Assembly: GCA_964513385.1 (NCBI GenBank)
Contig: CAZEMC010000007.1
Span: forward strand, 21,552-85,551
From: an uncultured Candidatus Saccharibacteria bacterium
Lineage (GTDB): Bacteria > Patescibacteriota > Saccharimonadia > Saccharimonadales > UBA4665
Direction: 5' to 3'
Length of the DNA stretch: 64,000 nt
Part shown: positions 27 to 55,665 of the stretch, piece by piece
How positions within the stretch are numbered: position 1 is the first letter of the stretch
Layout of the letters: every line of letters starts with the position of its first letter
The notes under the pieces: generated by a model
Databases searched by the model: none
What the model saw: the letters and a program-made list of their open reading frames with translations, nothing else
What the model was told of the DNA's origin: nothing
Translations under genes and position numbers: made by a program

Positions 27-103
27 GTCATCCTGGACTTGATTCAGGATCTAAAGCTCACAATTACTGAGTGCTGTAGATTCCGGGTCGAGCCCGGAAT
101 GAC
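27..103. repeat. GTCAT...ATGAC hairpin-ended MITE-like element, copy 1
   Basis: GTCATCCTGGACTTGATTCAGGAT ... ATTCCGGGTCGAGCCCGGAATGAC. Each end is itself a stem-loop. The same architecture occurs at 10114, 24463, 25468 and 60262. Confidence 0.7.
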
Positions 104-2533: not shown

Positions 2534-4945
2534 TCAGCTGCCGTTTAGTTGTTCTAGTTTGAACTGGGTGTATTTTTCGGCGGCGAGGCGGGCTAGTTCG
2601 GGGTCTTCTCCCTGGTTCATGAAGCTCATGGCTTCGGCGAGCAATGGGTGGACTTCGGCGATTTTGGCGTGCATCTGCTGGGCGATTTTGCGGTAGGTGG
2701 GGTGGCCCTGCGGCGACGAGCGCAGCTCGAGCATCTGGAAGGCTTCGCGGCCGTTGATGGTTACCTTCCAGCGGACATTGTTACCGTGGAGGACGGCGTA
2801 TTGGGCGATGACCGGCCCTTTGGCTGCCTGCAGCGCACTGTATAGCTCAAGGCTGAGGTCGAAACACTGTTCGAACTGCTCGGTCAGGCCGGCCTCTTCG
2901 ACCAGCTTCGGTACATCGTAGCCGAGGCGCGGGCTAAAGGTCTGCCACTGCAGGTCGTCGACCATGCGGTGGCGCTGTAGGTCTTTGAACGCGCCGTATT
3001 TGCCGACTAGGTCGAAACTGTAATGGATTTTTTCGAGGGCCCTGCCCGGCCGCTGGCGGCGGTTGAGGCGCTCGCCCATGGAGGCCTTGAAGACATCGGC
3101 TTTCTGCTGGTACGGCCAGGTTTGCACGACTTGCTGGAGCGCTTCGAGCGACAAATCGCTGTGTTCGTAGAGCATGTCGGGTACGATATCGAGTTCGTTG
3201 CGCGGGGTGTAAGCGACCAGCTGGACCGGGTCGGCTGCTGCACCGGTGTGGTTCGGCGGCAGCAGCTCGTCTGCCAGCTTGCGGACAGCGTCGTACGTAT
3301 TGGAACGGTAAGCGATGGTGGCGCCGCCGCGGTCGGGCTTGTCGGCGCGCTCCAGAAACACGGGGATGATTTTGCGGCCTTCTTCCAGCATGGCTTGGCC
3401 GGTTTGCCGGGCCTCTTCGAGCTCGTCGCCGAGCAAGTGCATGATAAGGCTTTCGAGCGCCTGGCCAGAGGCGAAGATGCCGACGGTGGCTTTGGTGGAA
3501 AGCGGCAGCAGGTCGCGGATAGCGTCGCAGGCCTGGGCTTTGGTGGCGGCGCGCCAGGCGGCGTCCTGCTCGGCCTTCGGTACGGTAGAGGTGGCACGGA
3601 CGTGCCCGGTCATTTTCTGGACCAAGTCGGAATAAATGTCGAAAATCTTGTTAGTAGTACGGATGTACTGGCTGCGGATTTTGCCCTTCAGCTCCGGCGG
3701 GACATAGTAGCGGTAACGGCCCTCGGCGTCCTTTTGGTCGAAGTAGATGTAGCGGCTGGACTGCTCCAGGTAAGCTGCCAGGCGGCCCCGCTCCAGCTTT
3801 TTGGTCAGCAGTATACTGGCGCCTTCGACCACGAAATGCTGGCCGACCAGCTGCTGGACCGAATCGTCGCCGTACGCGGTAATGACCCGGTGCAACAGCT
3901 GTGCGTCTTTGTCGACTTTGCCGATGAATTCGTCGAGCAGCGTGACGCGCATGTCGTCGCCGCGGCGGCTGAGCCGGGCCATGGCAGCGGCGGCCGTAAC
4001 CGGCGAAAGTGCCGGCGTAAAGCTGTAGACCGAACCTTCGGTGTTAGTGATGTATTTGGCGATTTCGGCGTTGCCAGCGGGCGTGATGCTGGTAGAACCG
4101 TTTTCGTTCTTCTGTATCCATGGTTCGCTTTGCTCCGGCGATGTTGCTGTCTCTGTCAGCTTGAGCTTGTCGAGAGATTCCGTCGGTGCCGTAATAGAAC
4201 GAGATTCCTCGGCTTCGCTCGGAATGACAGACAAGGGTGGTTCGACGGGACTGGTCTGGGTTGGGGGCTTGGCGGCCAGGACTTCGGCGACCGAGGTGGT
4301 CTGGCTGGGAGCGCCATCGCGCGTGGCCAGCGTATCGGCGACGTGTTTCCAGACTTGTTTGAAGACTTCGTCCACGCTCTCGGTAGCGTAAATGACCGGC
4401 AGGTTGCGCTGCTTGGCTTCCCAGAGGTAGCCTGCACGGACACGCTCTAGGAACGATTCGTCGAGGTTGTCGAATCGCTCGCCATTGTAGCGGTGTTTGA
4501 CACGCTCGCGCAGCGTGTTCACCGGCGCATCGAGCACTACCATGAGGTCGGGCTGCATGTCGCCGACGGCGAAGCCGATGATGTCGTTGATTTTTTCGTA
4601 ATCGGTTACGTCGCCCCGGCCGTAATACTGGATGGCGAGCGTGGTCAGATAGCTGCGGTCGACCAGGCAGTAGACGCCATTGACAGTCGCCTCACGTATA
4701 ATCTCGAGCGATTGTGAACGGGCGGCGTTGTACAGCAGCACTTCGGTGCGGGTGTTCATGGGGTAACGTGGGTCTTGGGTCAGGCGGCGGATGGCCCGGG
4801 CGGTCATGTCGTTCTGGCTTTCGGGCTCGCGCATGATTTTTACCGGCAGCCCAGCTGCCTGCAGGTGCTGGCCTATCATCTGGACCATCGTGGTTTTGCC
4901 GACACCCTCTGCGCCCTCTATGACGATGTATTTACCCCTATTCAT
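2534..4945 (-). CDS. tmk-thyX: thymidylate kinase fused to a two-domain FAD-dependent thymidylate synthase (ThyX)
   Basis: N-terminus has the P-loop IVIEGAEGVGKTT (Tmk). A low-complexity S/T/P/E linker follows. The C-terminal ~520 aa carry ThyX motifs RGRLAAYLEQSSRY, LQRHRM and ELRSSPQGH. Start taken at ATG 4943-4945 (GGGAG SD), because the ORF-track N-terminus runs into a repeat. Confidence 0.85.
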   Translation of the reverse strand: MNRGKYIVIEGAEGVGKTTMVQMIGQHLQAAGLPVKIMREPESQNDMTARAIRRLTQDPRYPMNTRTEVLLYNAARSQSLEIIREATVNGVYCLVDRSYLTTLAIQYYGRGDVTDYEKINDIIGFAVGDMQPDLMVVLDAPVNTLRERVKHRYNGERFDNLDESFLERVRAGYLWEAKQRNLPVIYATESVDEVFKQVWKHVADTLATRDGAPSQTTSVAEVLAAKPPTQTSPVEPPLSVIPSEAEESRSITAPTESLDKLKLTETATSPEQSEPWIQKNENGSTSITPAGNAEIAKYITNTEGSVYSFTPALSPVTAAAAMARLSRRGDDMRVTLLDEFIGKVDKDAQLLHRVITAYGDDSVQQLVGQHFVVEGASILLTKKLERGRLAAYLEQSSRYIYFDQKDAEGRYRYYVPPELKGKIRSQYIRTTNKIFDIYSDLVQKMTGHVRATSTVPKAEQDAAWRAATKAQACDAIRDLLPLSTKATVGIFASGQALESLIMHLLGDELEEARQTGQAMLEEGRKIIPVFLERADKPDRGGATIAYRSNTYDAVRKLADELLPPNHTGAAADPVQLVAYTPRNELDIVPDMLYEHSDLSLEALQQVVQTWPYQQKADVFKASMGERLNRRQRPGRALEKIHYSFDLVGKYGAFKDLQRHRMVDDLQWQTFSPRLGYDVPKLVEEAGLTEQFEQCFDLSLELYSALQAAKGPVIAQYAVLHGNNVRWKVTINGREAFQMLELRSSPQGHPTYRKIAQQMHAKIAEVHPLLAEAMSFMNQGEDPELARLAAEKYTQFKLEQLNGS

Positions 4946-4962
4946 ATCTAGACTCCCAGGGG

Positions 4963-5126
4963 GAATGACCAAACCCCAAGCACCAATTACCAAGCAATGA
5001 CTGAATGACCGAAGGTCCGGATGACCGATTTTGGTCATTTGTGTATTTGGACATTGGTGCTTGATTGGTCACCCGCCTGTCTGGCCGACAGGACGGACAG
5101 GTTGCGATTTGGTGCTTGGTTATTTT
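4963..5126. repeat. ACCAA/TTGGT-word palindromic element, copy 1
   Basis: AATGACCAAACCCCAAGCACCAATTACCAAGCAATGAC ... TTGGTCATTTGTGTATTTGGACATTGGTGCTTGATTGGTCA. Homologous to 13969-14146 and 22982-23140. Fills the dcd/tmk spacer. Confidence 0.7.
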
Positions 5127-10113: not shown

Positions 10114-10214
10114 GTCATTCCGGCCGGAGCCTGTCCTGAACTTGATTCAGGAAGCCGGAATCTACAGCGTGATGATACGTAAAGCGTTAGATTCCGGGTC
10201 AAGCCCGGAATGAC
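10114..10214. repeat. GTCAT...ATGAC MITE-like element, copy 2, with a nested hairpin unit
   Basis: GTCATTCCGGC[CGGAGCCTGTCCTGAACTTGATTCAGGAA]GCCGGAAT ... ATTCCGGGTCAAGCCCGGAATGAC. Confidence 0.7.
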
Positions 10215-18393: not shown

Positions 18394-18481
18394 GCGGACG
18401 TGGCGGAATTGGTAGACGCGCTAGTTTCAGGTACTAGTGAGCTTTAAACTCGTGGAGGTTCAAGTCCTCTCGTCCGCACCA
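18394..18481 (+). tRNA. tRNA-Leu (anticodon CAG), CCA encoded
   Basis: GCGGACG...CTAGT-TTCAGGT-ACTAG...long variable arm...GGAGGTTCAAGTCCTC...CGTCCGCACCA. Confidence 0.95.
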
Positions 18482-18517
18482 AGAAAATACCCCAGGCAAT
18501 GTTTGGGGTATTTTCTT
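18481..18517 (+). terminator. intrinsic terminator after tRNA-Leu
   Basis: 14-bp stem AAGAAAATACCCCA / TGGGGTATTTTCTT; the right arm supplies the T-tract. Confidence 0.7.
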
Positions 18518-18539
18518 GGCTTGAACTAGTAGATGTACT

Positions 18540-18896
18540 TCCAGAAAACCTTTCACGGTTCCGGCCAACTTTTCACGGGGCGTTTGTCAGCCCAGCTTCC
18601 GCTGGGCTGACGAGCCTAGGGTACGTCCGGACGGTTCTTGGCTTGGTGCGTTGGCTGGATATCCGTGCACAGGGATGAGTGTGAAGCCTGCAAACGATTC
18701 CACATCCGTGATGACTTCCCACGTAGGCGTCTTATGGTCTGACCAGGGAAACCCGCGGGTTTCCCTACGCTCGGTAGCATCCTTGCTTCGCGGATGCTAG
18801 CCGGGCTACCTTTCCGGTCTGCAGACCGGGGATTAGAGAGACTCGCTGGTCGCGAGTCGCAACGGAATCTGCGACTAGCGTTGGTGACTCACCCAC
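18540..18896. other. ORF-free cluster of GC-rich perfect hairpins (candidate structured RNA or hairpin array)
   Basis: Hairpins at 18586-18611 (11 bp; the loop reads GGAA on the minus strand), 18746-18765 (20-nt perfect palindrome), 18777-18797, 18814-18829, 18840-18858 and 18856-18875. No ORF of 60 aa or more on either strand. Confidence 0.4.
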
Positions 18897-18995
18897 TGCG
18901 CGTTAGTGCACGAGGCGATAGCTGAGCTTTAGGGGATGGGAGACATGCTTCGAGTTCATTTCGAAGCATGTTGGGAAGGGTGAGCCCTTCCCTAA
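18897..18995 (+). repeat. modular V-element, copy A (5' box + variable hairpin + G-rich hairpin)
   Basis: GCGTTAGTGCACGAGGCGATAGCTGAGCTTTAGGGGATGGGAG, then ACATGCTTCGA-GTTCATT-TCGAAGCATGT, then GGGAAGGG-TGAG-CCCTTCCC. Confidence 0.7.
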
Positions 18996-20785
18996 TTACT
19001 AACTTTGGCGGTGTGCGTTTCCCACGCGGCGACCGAGTTGTACCGGTCGGTGTCGGTGTTCAAAGCATGTTCTTCCAGGTTGTAGACCGGGCCGCGGGTT
19101 ATGTAGAGGAAGCGCGGCTGGTAGAGGCCGAGCGCGGGTGCGTCAGTCTGCCAGGCTTGCAAAAACGGCCGGTATTTTATGACGCGCAGGGCCGGGTCGG
19201 TGCGGGTGCGGCCGGCTTCGAGGGCGGTGTCCGCAGTAGTCGACCGGTATTCCGAAAAATTCAGCCGGCTCGTGGAGCGGATATCTGCCTGCGTGCTATC
19301 CCAGTAGGCGTAGACGTCGGGGTCGACGCCGATGGAAATGCCGTACAATAGCGCATCGTACGTATGGAACTCAAGCGTGGTCTGGAAGTCTGACGCCTGC
19401 TGCGAAATCGGCACGACATCGGCGCCGATAGCTCGCCAGTCGCTGACCAACCGGCGGACGACATAGTCATTTTCGGGTGTTTCCTGCGTGTACAAGCGGA
19501 ATGTCAGCCGCTGTCCGTTTTTGGTACGGATGCCGTTCGAACCGACGGCCCACCCAGCTGCGTCGAGCTGCGCCTTGGCGGCTGTCGGGTCGTAGCCGGC
19601 CTGGTAGTATTTGCTGTCGTACGCCAGCTGACCTATGAGCAGCGGTTCGCGCACGGCGTGGGTCTGGTACGACAGGCCCTCTATGATTCCCTGCGTATCG
19701 GCGCCTTTGACCAGCGCCTGGCGGACGGCCGTATCGCTCAGGACGCCGCTGGAAGTTTTGAAGAATGACATCAGCGCGGCGGTCGATGTAAAGCTGGTGA
19801 CATGTATGTCGGAGCCGGTGCCGATTTCTTTCGGAACTTCGTTCAGCCCGGCCATGGCGTTGACTTCGTGTGCGTTGAACGCGGCGACCAGCCGGTCACG
19901 GGTAGAGTAGGCGCGGATGACGAACCGGCTGAGCTTGGGGCTGCCGCCGACGTAGTTGTCGAACGGTTGGAGAGCGATGAAGGTGGTCGATTTGTCGGGG
20001 CTGCCGCCGTCGTTCGTTTCTATGGTGCGCCATTTGAACGGGCCGGCGCCGATGGGGTGGATAGTGTTGAAGTTGTTCGAGCGCAGCTGTTCGGCCGGTA
20101 CGTTGCCCAGGAGGTGCTCCGGGATGATGCCGGTCGTCAGGCTGTAGGGGAACGACGCGAGCGTGCTCGGCAGGTCGAACCGTACGGTCGCCGGGTTTAT
20201 GGCGCTGATACTGATTCCCTGCCAGGCTGCCTGCAGCGCCGAGTTCGCGTCGGGGTTCTGTATGGTGTGGTAGGTGAACACGACGTCGTTCGCCGTCAAC
20301 GGTTTGCCATCTTGCCAAGTTAGGTTGGGCTTGAGGGTGACAGTGTACTGCCGGCCGCTGGCATCGACGCTGAAGCCGCTGGCCAGGTCGCCGGTGAGTG
20401 AATTGTGGTTGTCGTATTTCAAGAGGCCGGCGAAAATCAGGCGCGACACTGCGGAATCGACGCTCCCGGTGGCGTAGATAGGGTTGGCGTTGCTGTAGCT
20501 GCCCACCATGCCTTCGTTGTAAGCGCCGCCACCGACAGGCTGCGTGGTCTGGTAGAACGTACTGAGCGCCATAGTCTGCGCCACGGTGCATCCGACCAGT
20601 AGTGCGACGAGCAGGAGCCAGCCGAATGCGAAGCGCTTAACATGTAATAGCCGGTCGAACCGGGCGATGAGGTTGTTTTCGAACTGTGCCTCGGCCTCTT
20701 GCGCGGCTGTTTCGACTTGCCGTTGCCGCCGGCGAAACAGCCGTCGGACCCGTAGGCGTGCTGCGCGGTCAAAAGAAAGTGCCAT
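18992..20785 (-). CDS. ABC transporter substrate-binding protein, family 5 (peptide/nickel type), membrane-anchored
   Basis: N-terminal TM segment and a typical SBP_bac_5 region (TVTLKPNLTWQDGKPLTANDVVFTY). No permease or ATPase gene adjacent. Confidence 0.85.
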   Translation of the reverse strand: MALSFDRAARLRVRRLFRRRQRQVETAAQEAEAQFENNLIARFDRLLHVKRFAFGWLLLVALLVGCTVAQTMALSTFYQTTQPVGGGAYNEGMVGSYSNANPIYATGSVDSAVSRLIFAGLLKYDNHNSLTGDLASGFSVDASGRQYTVTLKPNLTWQDGKPLTANDVVFTYHTIQNPDANSALQAAWQGISISAINPATVRFDLPSTLASFPYSLTTGIIPEHLLGNVPAEQLRSNNFNTIHPIGAGPFKWRTIETNDGGSPDKSTTFIALQPFDNYVGGSPKLSRFVIRAYSTRDRLVAAFNAHEVNAMAGLNEVPKEIGTGSDIHVTSFTSTAALMSFFKTSSGVLSDTAVRQALVKGADTQGIIEGLSYQTHAVREPLLIGQLAYDSKYYQAGYDPTAAKAQLDAAGWAVGSNGIRTKNGQRLTFRLYTQETPENDYVVRRLVSDWRAIGADVVPISQQASDFQTTLEFHTYDALLYGISIGVDPDVYAYWDSTQADIRSTSRLNFSEYRSTTADTALEAGRTRTDPALRVIKYRPFLQAWQTDAPALGLYQPRFLYITRGPVYNLEEHALNTDTDRYNSVAAWETHTAKVSN

Positions 20786-21037: not shown

Positions 21038-21090
21038 CGTTCTTCTAGTATAGCATGGGACTTTCGCAGAATGGCACATTCTGGAAAGCC

Positions 21091-21217
21091 GTTTACCATT
21101 TACCCTTCACCGTTTACCGTGCGTTACCCATTCACCATTTATCGTGCGGGCGTTATTCTTCATGGTAAACGGTTCACAGTGCATGTATGGTGAATGGAAA
21201 ATGGTGAACGGTGAATA
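21091..21217. repeat. complementary word tracts (TTTACC/TTCACC vs GGTAAA/GGTGAA)
   Basis: Left tract 21091-21140, right tract 21164-21217. Several alternative registers of pairing are possible. Confidence 0.55.
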
Positions 21218-25467: not shown

Positions 25468-25535
25468 GTCATTCCGAACTTGATTCGGAATCTTCTAAAG
25501 AGTCGTAAAAGATCCTGAATCAAGTTCAGGATGAC
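25468..25535. repeat. GTCAT...ATGAC MITE-like element, copy 4
   Basis: GTCATTCCGAACTTGATTCGGAAT-22 nt-CCTGAATCAAGTTCAGGATGAC. Fills the lemA-htpX spacer. Confidence 0.7.
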
Positions 25536-26433: not shown

Positions 26434-29445
<3,012 letters not shown>

Positions 29446-37797: not shown

Positions 37798-37905
37798 TGA
37801 GCGCCGTCAGGCGCAAGCAAGCGTAAGCGAAGCCTTTAGGGGTGGGGGCTAGCTATGCCGGATTTATTCCGGCATAGCTAGCGGGGAGGGTAAACCCTCC
37901 CCTTA
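37798..37905 (+). repeat. modular V-element, copy B
   Basis: TGAGCGCCGTCAGGCGCAAGCAAGCGTAAGCGAAGCCTTTAGGGGTGGGG, then GCTAGCTATGCCGGA-TTTAT-TCCGGCATAGCTAGC, then GGGGAGGG-TAAA-CCCTCCCC. Confidence 0.7.
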
Positions 37906-37930
37906 TGAGCTCGGCGGTGATGCCGAGTTC

Positions 37931-43838: not shown

Positions 43839-43955
43839 AACTAGGAATTAGCAATTTGCAACTGGCAGGCGTATTGACACGGAGAGCTGGCGATAGCTGC
43901 GCTAAACTTTACATATCGTGTAGCGGCTAGTTTCTAGTTCCCAGTTGCTAGTTGC
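43839..43955. repeat. complementary word tracts (AACTAG/GCAACT vs CTAGTT/AGTTGC)
   Basis: GCAACTGG (43858-43865) pairs with CCAGTTGC (43941-43948). AACTAG (43839-43844) pairs with CTAGTT (43948-43953). Lies in the lysR/ino1 divergent region. Confidence 0.5.
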
Positions 43956-44072
43956 TGATGGCTAGATTTCTCACTATAACATTTACCTATACATATATAA
44001 CACAAATATATTTGAAAACTATAAGCTTGTTACTGTATGCTTGCCTGGTAACAAGTGGAGGTGTGAAGGCTC

Positions 44073-47503: not shown

Positions 47504-47702
47504 TGAGCGTAGCGAACAAGGCGACCGCCATACTTCAGGGAATAGGAAACTACTGAGCGTAGCGAACAAGGCGACCGCCATACTTCAGGGAATAGGAAAC
47601 TACTGAGCGCAGCGCACGAGGCGATAGCCGAGCTTCAGGGGGAGGGGAACCTATCTCGAAGTGAATTCGAGATAGGTTCGGGAGGGGCGAGCCCCTCCCT
47701 TA
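47504..47702 (+). repeat. modular V-element, copy C, with its 5' box tandemly triplicated
   Basis: Two identical 50-nt units (47504-47553, 47554-47603), then a full element: TGAGCGCAGCGCACGAGGCGATAGCCGAGCTTCAGGGGGAGGGG, then AACCTATCTCGAA-GTGAA-TTCGAGATAGGTT, then GGGAGGGG-CGAG-CCCCTCCC. Confidence 0.8.
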
Positions 47703-47771
47703 GACTACAGCAAGCCCCTCCCTGATAGATAGAGCTCGACATGCCTGTCGAGCTCGGGGTATACTAAGCAT

Positions 47772-48449
47772 ATGAAGTTCATCATGGAGGGGCCGGAGGC
47801 TGCCGCAAAGGCGGTCGCCGCACAACTTATCACCGCTGTCAAAGCGACAAAACCGACCATCTGGCTGGTGTGCGGAGGTTCGAATATACCGACCGAGGTC
47901 GAAATCATGAATCAGCTGCGCGAGGCGGCGCCGGACAGCTTGGGGAGCCTGCTTATTTTGCCGATGGACGAGCGATATGGCCCGCCCGGCCACGCCGACA
48001 GCAACTACAAGCAGCTGCAAGACGCTGGGTTCGACCCAGGCAAGGCACTGTGGATGGACGTGCTGGAACGTAACTTGCCCCTGCCCGAGACCGTCGATTA
48101 CTACGGCGGTCTGGTGGAAGCGGCGTTCGCTTCCGCACAGGTTGTCGTTGGCCTCTTCGGCCTCGGCACCGATGGCCACACGGCCGGCGTACTGCCTGGC
48201 AGCCCGGCGGTGACAGAAGCAGCCACTACCGTGGTCGGGTACGATTCCCCGCCATTCGTCCGTCTGACGCTTACGCCTGGCCAGCTCGTCAAGACCACGG
48301 CTGCGTTCGTGTTGGCGTATGGCGAAGCCAAAAAAGAGCCGCTGGAACGGCTCCGGGCTAACCAAGAAGACTTGCAGCAGCTTCCTTCCAAGCTACTCTA
48401 CGACATCCCCGAAGTCTCCGTCTATAACGACCAGCTGGGAACAGAATGA
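47772..48449 (+). CDS. pgl: 6-phosphogluconolactonase
   Basis: LVCGGSN, LPMDERYG and GLGTDGHTAG motifs. Confidence 0.85.
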   Translation: MKFIMEGPEAAAKAVAAQLITAVKATKPTIWLVCGGSNIPTEVEIMNQLREAAPDSLGSLLILPMDERYGPPGHADSNYKQLQDAGFDPGKALWMDVLERNLPLPETVDYYGGLVEAAFASAQVVVGLFGLGTDGHTAGVLPGSPAVTEAATTVVGYDSPPFVRLTLTPGQLVKTTAAFVLAYGEAKKEPLERLRANQEDLQQLPSKLLYDIPEVSVYNDQLGTE

Positions 48450-48452
48450 AAA

Positions 48453-48526
48453 AGTTTATAGTTGATAGTTTACAGTTTGTAGTTAGCACGGGTGAACTAG
48501 CAACTAACAACTATAAACTATTTACT
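48453..48526. repeat. word-tract hairpin (TAGTT / AACTA)
   Basis: GTTTATAGTTG (48454-48464) pairs with CAACTATAAAC (48508-48518). The arms are nearly C-free and G-free respectively. Confidence 0.55.
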
Positions 48527-50841: not shown

Positions 50842-50940
50842 TGAGCGGAGCGAACAAGGTGAAAGCCGAACTTCAGGGGATGGGAGCTTTCTTTTGCATT
50901 CATTTCAAAAGAAAGTGGGAGGGGTGAGCCCCTCCCTTTA
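50842..50940 (+). repeat. modular V-element, copy D
   Basis: TGAGCGGAGCGAACAAGGTGAAAGCCGAACTTCAGGGGATGGGAG, then CTTTCTTTTG-CATTCATTT-CAAAAGAAAG, then GGGAGGGG-TGAG-CCCCTCCC-TTTA. Confidence 0.75.
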
Positions 50941-51038
50941 GCGTTCGGCATTCCGCCGAACGCGGCATAAAATAGTTGTGCTTACATCGGCAGTTCGTAT
51001 ATACTGAGGACAAACCGTAAGCAGAGACAAAAGGTAGC

Positions 51039-52249: not shown

Positions 52250-52340
52250 GGTAATAAGAAAAAAGTAATAAGTAATAAGGGGCAAGCTTCGCTTGCTGCA
52301 GTCAAAACCCTTTTTACCTTTTACCTTTTACCTTTTACCT
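52250..52340. repeat. complementary word tracts (GTAATAA vs four tandem CCTTTTA)
   Basis: C-free left tract 52250-52282. The right tract 52308-52340 is a 7-nt tandem array. Complementarity is imperfect. Confidence 0.5.
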
Positions 52341-52358
52341 TTGGAACGGAGTTTCAAT

Positions 52359-53570
52359 ATGTCTAAAAAGGCCATCGTCCTCTACCTCCACGTCCACCAG
52401 CCATACCGCGTGCGCAACTACACCATCCTCGATGCCGGCCACCGGCACGACTACTTCGATGCGCCCTACGAAGACCGCACCAGCAACGAACGTATTATCC
52501 ACAAAGTGGCCGAAAAGTCGTACCTGCCGACCAACAAAGTGCTGCTGGAGCTGCTGCACAAACACCCCGAGTTCAAACTCAGCATGTCCATAACCGGTAC
52601 CATCCTCGACCAGCTGGAGCAGTGGTCGCCCGAAGCGCTTCGGTCGTTCCAGGAACTCGTTCAGACCGGCCGGGTCGAAATCGTCGCCGAAACGTATCAC
52701 CACAGCCTGGCGTTTTTCTACTCCCGCCAGGAGTTCGAAGCCCAGGTACAGATGCACCGTGAAAAGGTTCAGCAGCTCTTCGGTGTTACGCCGACAGCTT
52801 TCCGCAACACCGAGCTGTCGTATAACAACGATGTCGCATACTGGGCCGACAAAGCCGGCTACAAAGTCGTCTTGAGCGAGGGCTGGGACCCGATACTTAA
52901 ATGGCGCAGTCCGAACTATGTCTACCGTCCTAGCTATACCGAAAACATCAAGCTGCTCATGAAGAACTACAAGCTCAGCGATGATGTCGCGTTCCGCTTT
53001 GGCAATCACGCTTGGAGCGAGTGGCCGCTGACTGCCGACAAGTACACTCACTGGCTCAGCGAGACGGGCGATGCGACTAACTTCAACCTGTTCATGGATT
53101 ACGAAACCTTCGGTGAGCATCAGTGGGACGAATCGGGTATTTTCGATTTCCTCCGGCACCTGCCCGGTGAATGGCTCAAGGGCCATGACCATACGTTCAT
53201 GACGGTCAGTGAAGCTGCCGACGCGTTCGAACCCGTCGATACCGTCGATACGCCATACACGGTCACCTGGGCCGACACCGAACGCGACCTGTCTGCGTGG
53301 CTGGGCAACAGCATGCAAGATTCCTCCATCCATGCCCTGTACGAACTCGAAGACGCCGTGAAAGGTTCCGGCGACCTGGCGCTGATAGAAGATTGGCGCC
53401 GGCTGACTACCAGTGACCACTTCTACTACATGTGTACCAAATGGTGGAGCGACGGTGACATCCACGCCTACTTCAGCCCGTACGAAACACCGTACGAAGC
53501 GTTTGTGGCGTTCATGAATGCCTGGCATGACCTGCAGTTCCGCCTTGTCGAAAAAGGAGCAACCGTATGA
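52359..53570 (+). CDS. glycoside hydrolase family 57 (alpha-glucan acting)
   Basis: LHVHQPYR, FRNTELSYN and MDYETFGEH motifs. Start at ATG 52359. Confidence 0.85.
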   Translation: MSKKAIVLYLHVHQPYRVRNYTILDAGHRHDYFDAPYEDRTSNERIIHKVAEKSYLPTNKVLLELLHKHPEFKLSMSITGTILDQLEQWSPEALRSFQELVQTGRVEIVAETYHHSLAFFYSRQEFEAQVQMHREKVQQLFGVTPTAFRNTELSYNNDVAYWADKAGYKVVLSEGWDPILKWRSPNYVYRPSYTENIKLLMKNYKLSDDVAFRFGNHAWSEWPLTADKYTHWLSETGDATNFNLFMDYETFGEHQWDESGIFDFLRHLPGEWLKGHDHTFMTVSEAADAFEPVDTVDTPYTVTWADTERDLSAWLGNSMQDSSIHALYELEDAVKGSGDLALIEDWRRLTTSDHFYYMCTKWWSDGDIHAYFSPYETPYEAFVAFMNAWHDLQFRLVEKGATV

Positions 53571-53640
53571 CGTATGACGTATCCCGTATAACGTATGAAG
53601 AAGCACCCCGAAATACGAAATACTTTATACGGTATACTGT
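53565..53640. repeat. word-tract hairpin (CGTATGA / TATACG words)
   Basis: CCGTATAACGTAT pairs with ATACTTTATACGG with one mismatch. Overlaps the GH57 stop. Confidence 0.5.
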
Positions 53641-55598: not shown

Positions 55599-55665
55599 CG
55601 TAGAACGACGAATGAAGAAAGACGAAGATGGATGTGCCTCTTCGTTCTTCATTCATCGTTCTACG
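55599..55665. repeat. long word-tract hairpin (GAAGAA/CGAA vs TTCGTTCTTC), terminator-like without a U-tract
   Basis: Left arm 55599-55627 and right arm 55640-55665 form about 26 bp with one mismatch and a 3-nt bulge. Starts 1 nt after the GH15 stop. Confidence 0.65.

What the first reader, a model, noticed from the sequence alone, without database searches (positions are those of the whole stretch)
18897..18995. Four-copy modular element: conserved 5' box, hypervariable perfect hairpin, covarying G-rich hairpin
Copies lie at 18897-18995, 37798-37905, 47604-47702 and 50842-50940, all in the same orientation. Each has three parts. (a) A ~40-nt box with approximate consensus TGAGCG.AGCG.AC.AGG.GA.AGC.GA.CTT.AGGGG..GGG. 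(b) A perfect 10-15 bp stem-loop whose sequence is unrelated between copies: ACATGCTTCGA, GCTAGCTATGCCGGA, AACCTATCTCGAA, CTTTCTTTTG. (c) An 8-bp G-rich hairpin that differs only by compensatory pairs (GGGAAGGG/CCCTTCCC, GGGGAGGG/CCCTCCCC, GGGAGGGG/CCCCTCCC twice), followed by TTA. Fixed flanks around a sequence-free but always perfectly paired stem do not fit ordinary terminators (no U-tract), REP decay or coding sequence. Three copies sit 25-100 nt upstream of plus-strand genes (DUF4190 gene, pgl operon, glucan synthase). One abuts the 3' end of a minus-strand gene. Possible explanations are a family of small RNAs with a variable specificity stem, a protein-recognised hairpin landmark, or the footprint of a hairpin-targeting mobile element.
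Basis: seen in the sequence. Interest (0 to 1): 0.78.

Follow-up and report, generated by a model that had tools for sequence, protein, structure and literature searches.

The report
Modular hairpin repeat of Saccharibacteria genomes
The four look-alike 100-base stretches are real copies of an apparently undescribed family of hairpin-rich repeated DNA found only in Saccharibacteria (TM7), which comes and goes at gene boundaries between sister genomes, so it behaves like a small mobile repeat rather than a set of small-RNA genes.

Summary
Four full copies lie on the + strand at 18897, 37798, 47604 and 50842, plus two box-only copies at 47504 and 47554.

A pattern scan and a covariance model found about 45 more copies. 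All are in Candidatus Saccharibacteria/Saccharimonadales MAGs. None are in viral, phage or plasmid collections, and no Rfam family matches.

The unit has three modules:
- **A:** a 45-nt conserved box holding two mini-hairpins.
- **H:** a hairpin with a variable lower stem but a conserved top, TTTYGAA-TTCAY-TTCRAAA.
- **G:** a G-rich hairpin.

So the middle stem is not sequence-free. Both H and G show strong covariation. The modules form a mosaic: A-only repeats, A-G, an optional 90-nt three-hairpin insert X, and tandem arrays.

Sister genomes differ in presence or absence at orthologous sites. One site was hit twice independently. One copy has persisted across species with compensatory changes. 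The G end abuts convergent stop codons (12/17 against 3/18 for the A end).

There are no inverted terminal repeats, no target duplications, no conserved upstream promoter and no U-tract.

Best reading: a new REP/BIME/BOX-like mobile intergenic repeat. Its mobilising enzyme and its effect on RNA are unknown.

The parts
18897..18942 (+). Copy 1, A box. Variant type TGCGCG..AGTGCAC, whose first mini-hairpin is GCGC-GTTA-GTGC.
18943..18971 (+). Copy 1, H hairpin: 11-bp stem, loop GTTCATT.
   Evidence: The orthologue in L041 differs by two compensatory pair changes.
18973..18992 (+). Copy 1, G hairpin GGGAAGGG-TGAG-CCCTTCCC. Its last base is the first base of the reverse-strand stop codon of the SBP gene (18992-20785, minus strand).
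37798..37847 (+). Copy 2, A box. Divergent type: first mini-hairpin expanded to GCGCC-GTCA-GGCGC, second is GC-GTAA-GC.
   Evidence: 70 bits
37848..37882 (+). Copy 2, H hairpin: 15-bp stem, loop TTTAT.
37883..37902 (+). Copy 2, G hairpin GGGGAGGG-TAAA-CCCTCCCC.
47504..47603 (+). Two identical tandem A-box-only units of 50 nt each. Each ends in the linker CTAC.
47604..47646 (+). Copy 3, A box.
   Evidence: 101 bits
47647..47679 (+). Copy 3, H hairpin: 14-bp stem. The loop GTGAA is the reverse complement of the family loop TTCAC, i.e. the hairpin is flipped.
47680..47699 (+). Copy 3, G hairpin GGGAGGGG-CGAG-CCCCTCCC.
47705..47722 (+). CTAC-AGCAAG-CCCCTCCC: an extra 3' arm that looks like a collapsed second unit. 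The same piece follows units in L005 and L039.
50842..50886 (+). Copy 4, A box. It starts 9 nt after the zwf stop codon (8 nt lie between them).
50887..50915 (+). Copy 4, H hairpin: 10-bp stem. The same stem is present in the orthologous copy of the sister genome (L037) and in a non-orthologous copy (L021).
50917..50936 (+). Copy 4, G hairpin GGGAGGGG-TGAG-CCCCTCCC. The sister orthologue has GGGAAGGG/CCCTTCC, a compensatory change.

Best explanation
The four copies are units of a lineage-restricted family of mosaic, hairpin-rich interspersed repeats of Candidatus Saccharibacteria (Saccharimonadales). The unit runs from TGAGCG to CCCTCCC-TNA.

Its modules are:
- **A:** a sequence-conserved box with two mini-hairpins closed by GNA/GNNA loops.
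- **H:** a hairpin with a conserved top and a subfamily-specific lower stem.
- **G:** a G-rich hairpin.
- Optional extras: the insert X, repeated A boxes and an extra 3' arm.

The unit is copied or exchanged as a block of DNA. The ends are conserved and the interior is free to vary, so the ends are what is recognised. It lands at the edges of functional units in a very compact genome: immediately after stop codons, preferentially with the G end against the stop, or about 13-15 nt upstream of a promoter -35 box.

Copies then recombine with each other (gene conversion, module shuffling). Stems stay paired through compensatory change.

**Shown:** the family, its structure and covariation, the mosaic, gain/loss between sister genomes, independent insertions at one site, and the polarity towards stop codons.

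**Inferred:**
- Movement uses a trans-acting enzyme that recognises folded single-stranded ends, as RAYT does for REP or Y1 TnpA for IS200/IS605-type elements. No such gene was found.
- Once in place, the stacked hairpins act on transcripts that read into them, as a 3'-end barrier or insulator. This would explain why some copies are kept for a long time.
For: **Distribution**
- Copies occur only in Saccharibacteria MAGs.
- None in viral contigs, phage or plasmid collections.
- No Rfam family matches.
- None in 85 kb from four other Saccharibacteria species.

**Structure**
- 95% of cells are paired, 20 of 23 pairs have double changes, and 0 of 500 shuffles reach this.

**Mosaic**
- A-only, A-G, A-X-H-G, A-H-G with X in the G loop, and arrays.

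**Block copying**
- Composite units about 200 nt long are 94-98% identical at unrelated loci of one MAG. Similarity stops exactly at TGAGCG and at CCCTCCCT.

**Turnover between sister genomes (zwf and SBP at least 90% identical)**
- The array upstream of pgl is in the window only.
- The unit after the GH15 stop is in the sister only.
- The unit after zwf is in both, with the same H but a different A subtype.

**Independent hits at the zwf end**
- The window copy starts 9 nt after the stop.
- L025's copy lies 6 nt before the ancestral stop and adds MSAANEAKAEL.
- The site is empty in L025's sister L024 and in four outgroups.

**Polarity**
- The G end lies within 16 nt of a convergent stop in 12/17 cases, against 3/18 for the A end (Fisher p = 0.002).

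**Persistence**
- The unit at the SBP stop is present in the window, its sister and a relative with 75% SBP identity. Two compensatory pair changes occur in H and one flipped pair in A.
Against: - This is weak evidence, because the gene could be anywhere in the genome.
- There are no terminal inverted repeats, no target-site duplication and no fixed flanking target, so the mechanism of movement is not demonstrated.
- Long retention with compensatory evolution at the SBP site, and 80-90% conservation of the A box between genomes whose flanking proteins are about 70% identical, look more like host-level selection than a purely selfish element.
- The strand preference of wobble pairs is weak: 14 G-U against 7 A-C after removing misaligned rows. 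It does not show which strand folds.
Confidence: 0.6

Rival explanations
1. The element is primarily a host cis-acting module for RNA 3'-end formation or insulation. It would be a cassette of two strong hairpins plus a protein-recognised box, placed at stop codons and in front of promoters to end or shield transcription units in a compact genome. Spread would be a side effect of recombination between copies.
For: - The copy at the SBP stop codon is kept in three genomes down to 75% protein identity, with compensatory changes, while the DNA beyond it is unrelated.
- The G end sits 0-2 nt after native stop codons.
- In copies 2 and 3, and in the sister's copy 4, the G end lies about 13-15 nt upstream of the -35 box.
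- At the GH15 stop, the window carries another long hairpin where the sister carries the element, as if the two were interchangeable.
Against: - There is no U-tract, and the terminator scan finds nothing at the copies. The genome has ordinary terminators with A/T tracts.
- Copies work against genes in both orientations, yet the A box is strongly orientation-specific and its sequence is conserved.
- Three copies lie between divergent genes, where nothing needs ending.
- Sister genomes do without the copy at pgl and at GH15.
- A hairpin starting at the stop codon would be masked by the terminating ribosome (general knowledge, not tested here).
Confidence: 0.25
2. The copies are a family of trans-acting small RNAs. 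The conserved box and G hairpin would form a scaffold and terminator, and the variable stem would set target specificity.
For: - The architecture is conserved scaffold, variable middle, terminal hairpin.
- Covariation is strong.
- Copy 1 and L005 directly follow a conserved hairpin-rich noncoding stretch, which suggests + strand transcription there.
Against: - Nothing is conserved upstream of the A box.
- Copies start 8-10 nt after an upstream stop codon, or inside the ORF.
- Both arms of the variable part are fully paired to each other, and no complement exists elsewhere in the window.
- There is no U-tract.
- Box-only and box-less derivatives exist.
Confidence: 0.04
3. The element is a DNA-level landmark read by a protein on double- or single-stranded DNA, for example a nucleoid or roadblock protein site, a priming signal or a DNA-uptake signal. 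The hairpins would form as cruciforms or on single strands.
For: - The mini-hairpins GC-GNA-GC and GGC-GNNA-GCC match the very stable DNA mini-hairpin type (general knowledge).
- A DNA-level function would be indifferent to neighbouring gene orientation, as observed.
- The loop of copy 3 is flipped, which is a DNA-level event.
- Some loci lie next to type IV pilus genes.
Against: - The density, about 1 per 16 kb and intergenic only, is far below that of known uptake signals.
- Orientation is not uniform within single contigs (L004, L013, L021), which argues against a replication-linked signal.
- No candidate binding protein was identified.
Confidence: 0.08

Closest known systems
REP / BIME elements of proteobacteria (mobilised by RAYT, a Y1 HUH transposase)
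   Same: - Extragenic, structured, orientation-specific repeats.
- No terminal inverted repeats or target duplications.
- Mosaic arrays.
- Preference for the 3' ends of genes, close to stop codons.
- Stems kept by compensatory change.
- Mixed selfish and host-useful character.
   Different: - The unit is about 100 nt with four hairpins and a 45-nt conserved, mostly unpaired box, not a 20-40-nt palindrome with a GTAG head.
- Copies are mostly single and in one orientation, not inverted doublets.
- No RAYT was found.
- The box is conserved across species whose flanking proteins are only 63-75% identical.
BOX elements of Streptococcus pneumoniae (boxA-boxB(n)-boxC)
   Same: - Modular intergenic repeats with a repeatable internal or terminal module. 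Here the A box is repeated two to three times, and X is optional.
- Stable secondary structure.
- Location next to promoters and gene ends.
- No known own transposase.
   Different: - No sequence relation.
- A different phylum.
- The modules here are bounded by G-rich junctions.
- The variable hairpin with a conserved loop has no counterpart in BOX.
IS200/IS605-derived palindrome-associated elements (PATE)
   Same: - No terminal inverted repeats and no target duplication.
- Subterminal hairpins at both ends.
- Strict polarity.
- A conserved-ends, free-interior pattern, which would fit recognition of folded single-stranded ends.
   Different: - No constant tetra- or pentanucleotide target at one end.
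- No TnpA was found.
- Unit-internal arrays joined by the linker CTAC.
Rickettsia palindromic elements (RPE)
   Same: - Repeats of about 100-150 nt that can fuse in frame with genes. The L025 copy extends zwf by 11 residues.
   Different: - RPEs are mostly inside coding sequences. Apart from that one C-terminal fusion, this family is confined to gene boundaries.

Membership tests
REP/BIME (RAYT-associated) | Short (20-40 nt) imperfect palindrome with a conserved 5' tetranucleotide head (GTAG type). | tested here: not met
   The unit is 100 nt, begins TGAGCG and holds four hairpins.
REP/BIME (RAYT-associated) | A cognate RAYT gene in the genome, typically flanked by inverted REPs. | tested here: inconclusive
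The only gene flanked by inverted copies (L004) is a SpoU-type methyltransferase as judged from its sequence motifs, which I read by eye without a Pfam scan. Whole genomes were not searchable.
REP/BIME (RAYT-associated) | Extragenic location with a bias to gene 3' ends. | tested here: met
   All copies are intergenic or at ORF ends. The G end lies within 16 nt of a convergent stop codon in 12/17 cases.
MITE (cut-and-paste derivative) | Terminal inverted repeats. | tested here: not met
   The 5' end is TGAGCGNAGCG and the 3' end is ..CCCTCCCTNA. They are not complementary.
MITE (cut-and-paste derivative) | Target-site duplication. | tested here: not met
   The flanks of six near-identical copies share nothing. 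Comparison of the filled and empty zwf sites shows no duplication.
IS200/IS605-type PATE | Constant short target sequence abutting one end. | tested here: not met
   The 5' flanks vary (CTAC, CAAA, GCAA, CATA and others). The 3' junction is only T-N-A.
IS200/IS605-type PATE | Subterminal hairpins at both ends and no terminal inverted repeats. | tested here: met
   Mini-hairpins sit in A at the 5' end and the G hairpin at the 3' end.
Intrinsic (Rho-independent) terminator | GC-rich hairpin followed directly by a U-tract. | tested here: not met
   The scan finds no terminator-like site in the regions holding copies 2 and 3. The tails are TAA, TTA or TTT-AG. Only some copies have a T-rich arm after G on the opposite strand.
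TIGR-Tas guide array | 36-nt units with two non-complementary 9-nt spacers, in arrays beside a Nop-domain Tas gene. | tested here: not met
   The units are 100 nt, the arms are complementary and the copies are dispersed. TIGR features taken from PMC12045711.
Integron attC site | Inverse core RYYYAAC and core GTTRRRY at the ends, in cassette arrays beside intI. | tested here: not met
   There is no GTTRRRY at the 3' end, and the copies are dispersed singly.
Any Rfam 15 RNA family | Score at or near a family's gathering threshold. | tested here: not met
   There are no hits at gathering threshold. In E-value mode (up to 10), only noise appears over copies 1, 3 and 4 and over the long variants.
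Independent small-RNA gene | Own promoter upstream and a discrete terminator. | tested here: not met
   The upstream flanks are unrelated. The A box starts 8-10 nt after an upstream stop codon or inside the ORF. Transcripts themselves cannot be tested with these tools.

The most novel reading that the evidence does not exclude
The A-H-G unit could be a self-propagating 3'-boundary cassette of CPR bacteria. Its conserved 45-nt box and folded ends would be read by a still unknown machine that is not a classical transposase encoded in cis, and that may act on single-stranded DNA or on RNA. That machine would place the G end within 0-2 nt of a stop codon. The cell would keep the unit because it shapes transcript ends. 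This would be a new mechanism for targeting gene ends, and a new class of structured nucleic-acid element in reduced genomes.
Probability: 0.2. Interest if true: 0.8.

Novelty: new variant of a known kind. Interest (0 to 1): 0.55.

Why it matters
Saccharibacteria and other CPR bacteria have tiny genomes, about 1 Mb, that are thought to carry little repeated or mobile DNA. Their non-coding repertoire is almost unexplored.

Four searches of the held paper library, three of them specific to Saccharibacteria, found no description of a repeat family in this phylum.

A structured, modular repeat that turns over between sister genomes and sits exactly at stop codons and promoter edges matters in four ways:
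1. It shows active non-coding genome dynamics in an epibiont lineage.
2. It explains some contig breaks and ORF extensions in MAGs, such as the 11-residue tail on zwf in L025.
3. It gives a ready covariance model for annotation and strain typing.
4. It poses a concrete question: which protein recognises the conserved box?

If the hairpins set transcript ends, this would be a first handle on transcription-unit boundaries in this phylum.

Tried and rejected
- **Coding mini-ORF.** ATG-AGC-G..CTT-TAG reads as an 11-codon ORF in many copies, and copies 1 and 4 give 15-residue ORFs across H. Rejected: the first base is A, C, T or G, variation falls on first and second codon positions, there is no ribosome-binding site, and copies 2 and 3 break the frames (read).
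- **Cyanobacterial origin.** Heptamer repeats suggested it. No HIP1 site is present, and homologues are all Saccharibacteria.
- **Hammerhead ribozyme in the stretch 5' of copy 1 (CUGAYGAG).** That motif is inside a covarying stem, and Rfam gives no hit.
- **tmRNA or RNase P identity for that stretch.** No Rfam or ARAGORN support.
- **TIGR array.** Rejected after reading PMC12045711.
- **Antisense targets of the variable arms.** None in the window.
- **The palindrome GAGCTCGRC..GYCGAGCTC as a fourth module.** It stays in the sister genome without the element and overlaps the -35 of the pgl promoter, so it belongs to the promoter.
- **G hairpin as a pre-existing host terminator beside which A-H inserted.** The empty SBP site in L042 has a different hairpin 40 nt away.
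- **Strand call from G-U against A-C.** The first count was inflated by misaligned rows of the X-bearing copies. The corrected count, 14 against 7, is not significant.
- **G-quadruplex across the four G runs.** Not conserved, for example in L011.
- **Y1 transposase search.** Negative but weak.

Full report

Yes.

Each has three parts:
- A 45-nt box that starts TGAGCG (TGCGCG in copy 1) and ends CTTYAGGGG..GGGAG.
- A perfect hairpin of 10-15 bp.
- An 8-bp G-rich hairpin whose differences are compensatory.

Two more box-only units, identical to each other, lie in tandem just upstream of copy 3 at 47504-47603. With filters off, a covariance model finds no other copy in the window.

The window's GC content is 48-60% per 2-kb bin. 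It has no cyanobacterial HIP1 sites. Its proteins have their closest homologues in Candidatus Saccharibacteria MAGs.

**2. Where else does it occur?**

An IUPAC pattern from the box was scanned over one genome per GTDB species. It hit 21 loci. Eighteen are confirmed copies, all in Saccharibacteria/Saccharimonadales or unclassified MAGs. The three other hits (Cloacimonadota L012, Comamonadaceae L016 and an uncultured-bacterium MAG, L018) are the number expected by chance, and none is a confident model match: L016 and L018 score nothing, and L012 scores 22.9 bits (E = 6.5e-4).

The metagenome scan added seven loci. The viral scan found none. BLAST against phage and plasmid collections found none. 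Rfam 15 has no matching family, even at E up to 10.

Four other Saccharibacteria species, with zwf 63-64% identical, have no copy in 85 kb. So the family is restricted to part of the order.

One MAG, GCA_039809105.1 (JBDHUJ01), carries at least 18 copies in the pieces held. It turned out to be a sister of the window's genome: its zwf and SBP proteins fall in the same 90% clusters.

**3. Anatomy**

With about 45 copies aligned, the unit is A-H-G.

- GC-GNA-GC, which becomes GC-GCCA-GC, GCGC-GTTA-GTGC or GCGCC-GTCA-GGCGC in subtypes.
- GGC-GNNA-GCC, with covarying forms AGC/GCT, GGA/TCC, GCC/GGC and GGGC/GCCC.

*H hairpin.* It is not sequence-free. The loop TTCAY and the upper stem TTTYGAA/TTCRAAA are conserved. 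Only the lower 5-8 pairs differ, and they fall into a limited set of variants. In copy 3 the loop reads GTGAA, the exact reverse complement. The palindrome has been flipped, which is a DNA-level event seen in one of about 40 copies.

*G hairpin.* It is GGRRGGG-YRAG-CCYYCC, followed by T-N-A.

*Covariation.* It is strong. 95% of cells are paired, 20 of 23 pairs show changes on both sides, no shuffle out of 500 reaches the observed values, and sliding the partners destroys the signal. That alignment was fitted to the model, so it leans towards the structure. An independent MAFFT/RNAalifold run on 12 copies gave the same helices.

*Which strand folds* is not settled. After removing rows that the model misaligned, there are 14 G-U against 7 A-C pairs.

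**4. Mosaic architecture**

The modules occur in several fixed combinations:
- A alone, repeated, joined by CTAC (window 47504-47603; L021).
- A-G without H (L009, L028).
- H-G with a truncated A (L022 77-177, L004 1933-2032, L021 646-745).
- A-X-H-G, and A-H-G with X inside the G loop. X is a 90-nt three-hairpin insert that itself shows compensatory changes.
- Tandem arrays of different subtypes (L007, L011, L029, L010).

X never occurs outside the element. Junctions are always at G-rich ends (..AGGG / GGGAG), which invites recombination between modules.

**5. Evidence that units move or are exchanged as DNA**

- *Block copying.* In the sister MAG, six composite units of about 200 nt at unrelated loci are 94-98% identical. 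Similarity stops sharply at TGAGCG and at CCCTCCCT, with unrelated flanks, no inverted terminal repeats and no duplication.
- *Differences between the sister genomes.*
  - The A-A-A-H-G array upstream of pgl is present in the window only. The promoter and its palindrome are identical in both. One caveat: the sister contig ends 171 nt upstream.
  - A unit abutting the GH15 stop codon is present in the sister only. The window has a different 27-bp hairpin there, and identity ends 2 nt after the stop.
  - The unit after zwf is present in both, with the same H stem and a compensatory change in G. But the A box is of a different subtype, which indicates conversion from another copy.
- *Independent insertions at the zwf-GT spacer.*
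  - The tree is (window, (L024, L025)), with four outgroups.
  - The element is present in the window, starting 9 nt after the stop.
  - In L025 it lies 6 nt before the ancestral stop, which is still visible downstream. The zwf ORF now ends in element-encoded MSAANEAKAEL.
  - The site is empty in L024 and in all four outgroups.
  - The different junctions point to two independent insertions at nearly the same place.

**6. Evidence for long retention**

The unit whose G end touches the stop codon of the peptide-binding protein gene (copy 1) is at the same place in three genomes: the window, its sister (L039) and a genome whose protein is 75% identical (L041).

Copy 1 and L041 share the G hairpin. 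They differ in H by two compensatory pair changes and in the second A mini-hairpin by a flipped pair. The DNA beyond the element is unrelated.

A genome without the family (L042) has the same C-terminus and stop codon, but a different hairpin 40 nt further on.

So some copies are old and structure-constrained, or else are continually refreshed from other copies.

**7. Position and polarity**

Copies are found in convergent, tandem and, rarely, divergent spacers.
- The G end lies within 16 nt of the stop codon of a convergent gene in 12 of 17 such cases, often 0-2 nt.
- The A end is that close to an upstream stop in only 3 of 18 cases (Fisher p = 0.002).
- When the next gene is co-oriented, the G end lies about 13-15 nt upstream of the -35 box. 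This holds for copies 2 and 3, and for the sister's copy 4.

Part of this follows from compactness: the empty zwf-GT spacer has only about 16 nt between the stop and the -35 box. Compactness does not explain the G-against-A asymmetry.

**8. What it is not**

- *Not an ordinary terminator.* There is no U-tract, and the window's ordinary terminators have A/T tracts.
- *Not coding.* The variable positions are not synonymous and the frames are inconsistent.
- *Not a set of sRNA genes.* There is no conserved upstream sequence, and some copies start inside or right after ORFs. The variable arms have no complement elsewhere in the window.
- *Not a TIGR array.* Features checked in PMC12045711.
- *Not attC, a MITE with inverted ends, or classical REP.* See the membership table.

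**9. Most likely mechanism**

*Shown:* a block bounded by a conserved 5' box and a conserved 3' hairpin, with a free interior, is duplicated to new intergenic boundaries and recombines with its relatives.

*Inferred:*
- The ends are recognised as folded single strands by a trans-acting enzyme of the HUH/Y1 kind, by analogy with REP/RAYT and IS200/IS605. The supporting features are the absence of inverted repeats, the absence of duplications, strict polarity and subterminal hairpins with GNA/GNNA loops.
- Transcribed copies act as hairpin barriers at transcript ends. This would give selection a reason to keep copies such as the one at the SBP gene.

I put 0.6 on the mobile mosaic-repeat reading, 0.25 on a primarily host-functional boundary module, and less than 0.1 each on the DNA-landmark and sRNA readings. 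The first two are not exclusive.

**10. Novelty**

The kind is known: structured interspersed intergenic repeats such as REP/BIME, BOX, RPE and PATE. This family fails the defining features of each named family.

Four searches of the held paper library, three of them naming Saccharibacteria, found no description of such repeats in this phylum.

It also has unusual traits: a 45-nt box conserved across genera, a hairpin with a conserved loop and a subfamily-specific stem, an optional nested three-hairpin insert, and a polarised fit against stop codons. I rate it a new variant of a known kind, with interest 0.55.

**11. Limits**

- No complete genome, no transcript data and no enzyme are available.
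- Gene calls in the context table are longest-ORF heuristics. Stop codons are exact, starts are not.
- Several loci come from one MAG, and three metagenome loci duplicate genome loci (L026 = L004, L030 = L011, L032 = L027).
- The orthologue of copy 2 was not examined.

Noticed in passing
window 18545-18896 (and L005 4450-4100, minus strand): A hairpin-rich noncoding stretch of about 350 nt lies directly 5' of copy 1. It is 74% identical over 411 nt, a span that runs on into the attached A-H-G unit, to a stretch in the sister MAG that also runs into an A-H-G unit but has different neighbours (pilin, PilC). It has several compensatory changes and no Rfam hit at E up to 10. It is absent from the sister's orthologous SBP spacer. 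It may be an unknown structured RNA or a long form of the repeat.
   Followed up: partly
window 18479-18519: A 16-bp perfect hairpin immediately follows tRNA-Leu(CAG). The same hairpin follows the tRNA in L039 and L042.
   Followed up: partly
window 21089-21120, 26442-26472, 43926-43956, 48453-48484, 52251-52279, 52312-52342, 53564-53598: Seven different heptanucleotide tandem repeats (4-5 copies each) occur in the window. By the ORF coordinates, those at 48453 and 52251 begin a few nt after a stop codon (pgl and the glycosyltransferase).
   Followed up: no
window 80-100, 10191-10211, 25471-25491, 25512-25532: A second small hairpin family, ATTCCGGG-tcRag-CCCGGAAT-gac, with two looser relatives.
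   Followed up: no
window 55600-55665: A hairpin of about 27 bp starts 2 nt after the GH15 stop codon. In the sister genome (L037 7862-8060), exactly this place holds an antisense A-H-G unit with X in the G loop.
   Followed up: partly
window 37907-37930 and 47732-47755 (also L022 177-200, L037 about 125-150): The palindrome GAGCTCGRC-N6-GYCGAGCTC overlaps the predicted -35 box of the pgl promoter and also precedes the DUF4190 gene. It is conserved in the sister genome without the element, so it is probably an operator shared by several promoters.
   Followed up: partly
window 50941-50963: A 28-nt hairpin, GCGTTCGGC-attcc-GCCGAACGC, lies between copy 4 and the glycosyltransferase promoter. It is an indel relative to the sister genome.
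   Followed up: partly
window 47760-47774: The pgl start codon lies 7 nt after the -10 box TATACT. The same is true in L024 and L037. This suggests a leaderless or near-leaderless mRNA.
   Followed up: no
window 2534-5038 (minus strand): An 834-residue ORF combines thymidylate kinase and ThyX (Thy1) domains in one protein.
   Followed up: no
window 52606-52679: ARAGORN calls a tRNA-Arg(TCG) here, but the Rfam tRNA model does not. The call lies inside the 52293-53570 ORF, so it is probably a false positive.
   Followed up: no
L025 4127-4162: The A box supplies the last 11 codons and the TAG stop of zwf (MSAANEAKAEL). This is a repeat-derived C-terminal extension in an annotated protein.
   Followed up: yes
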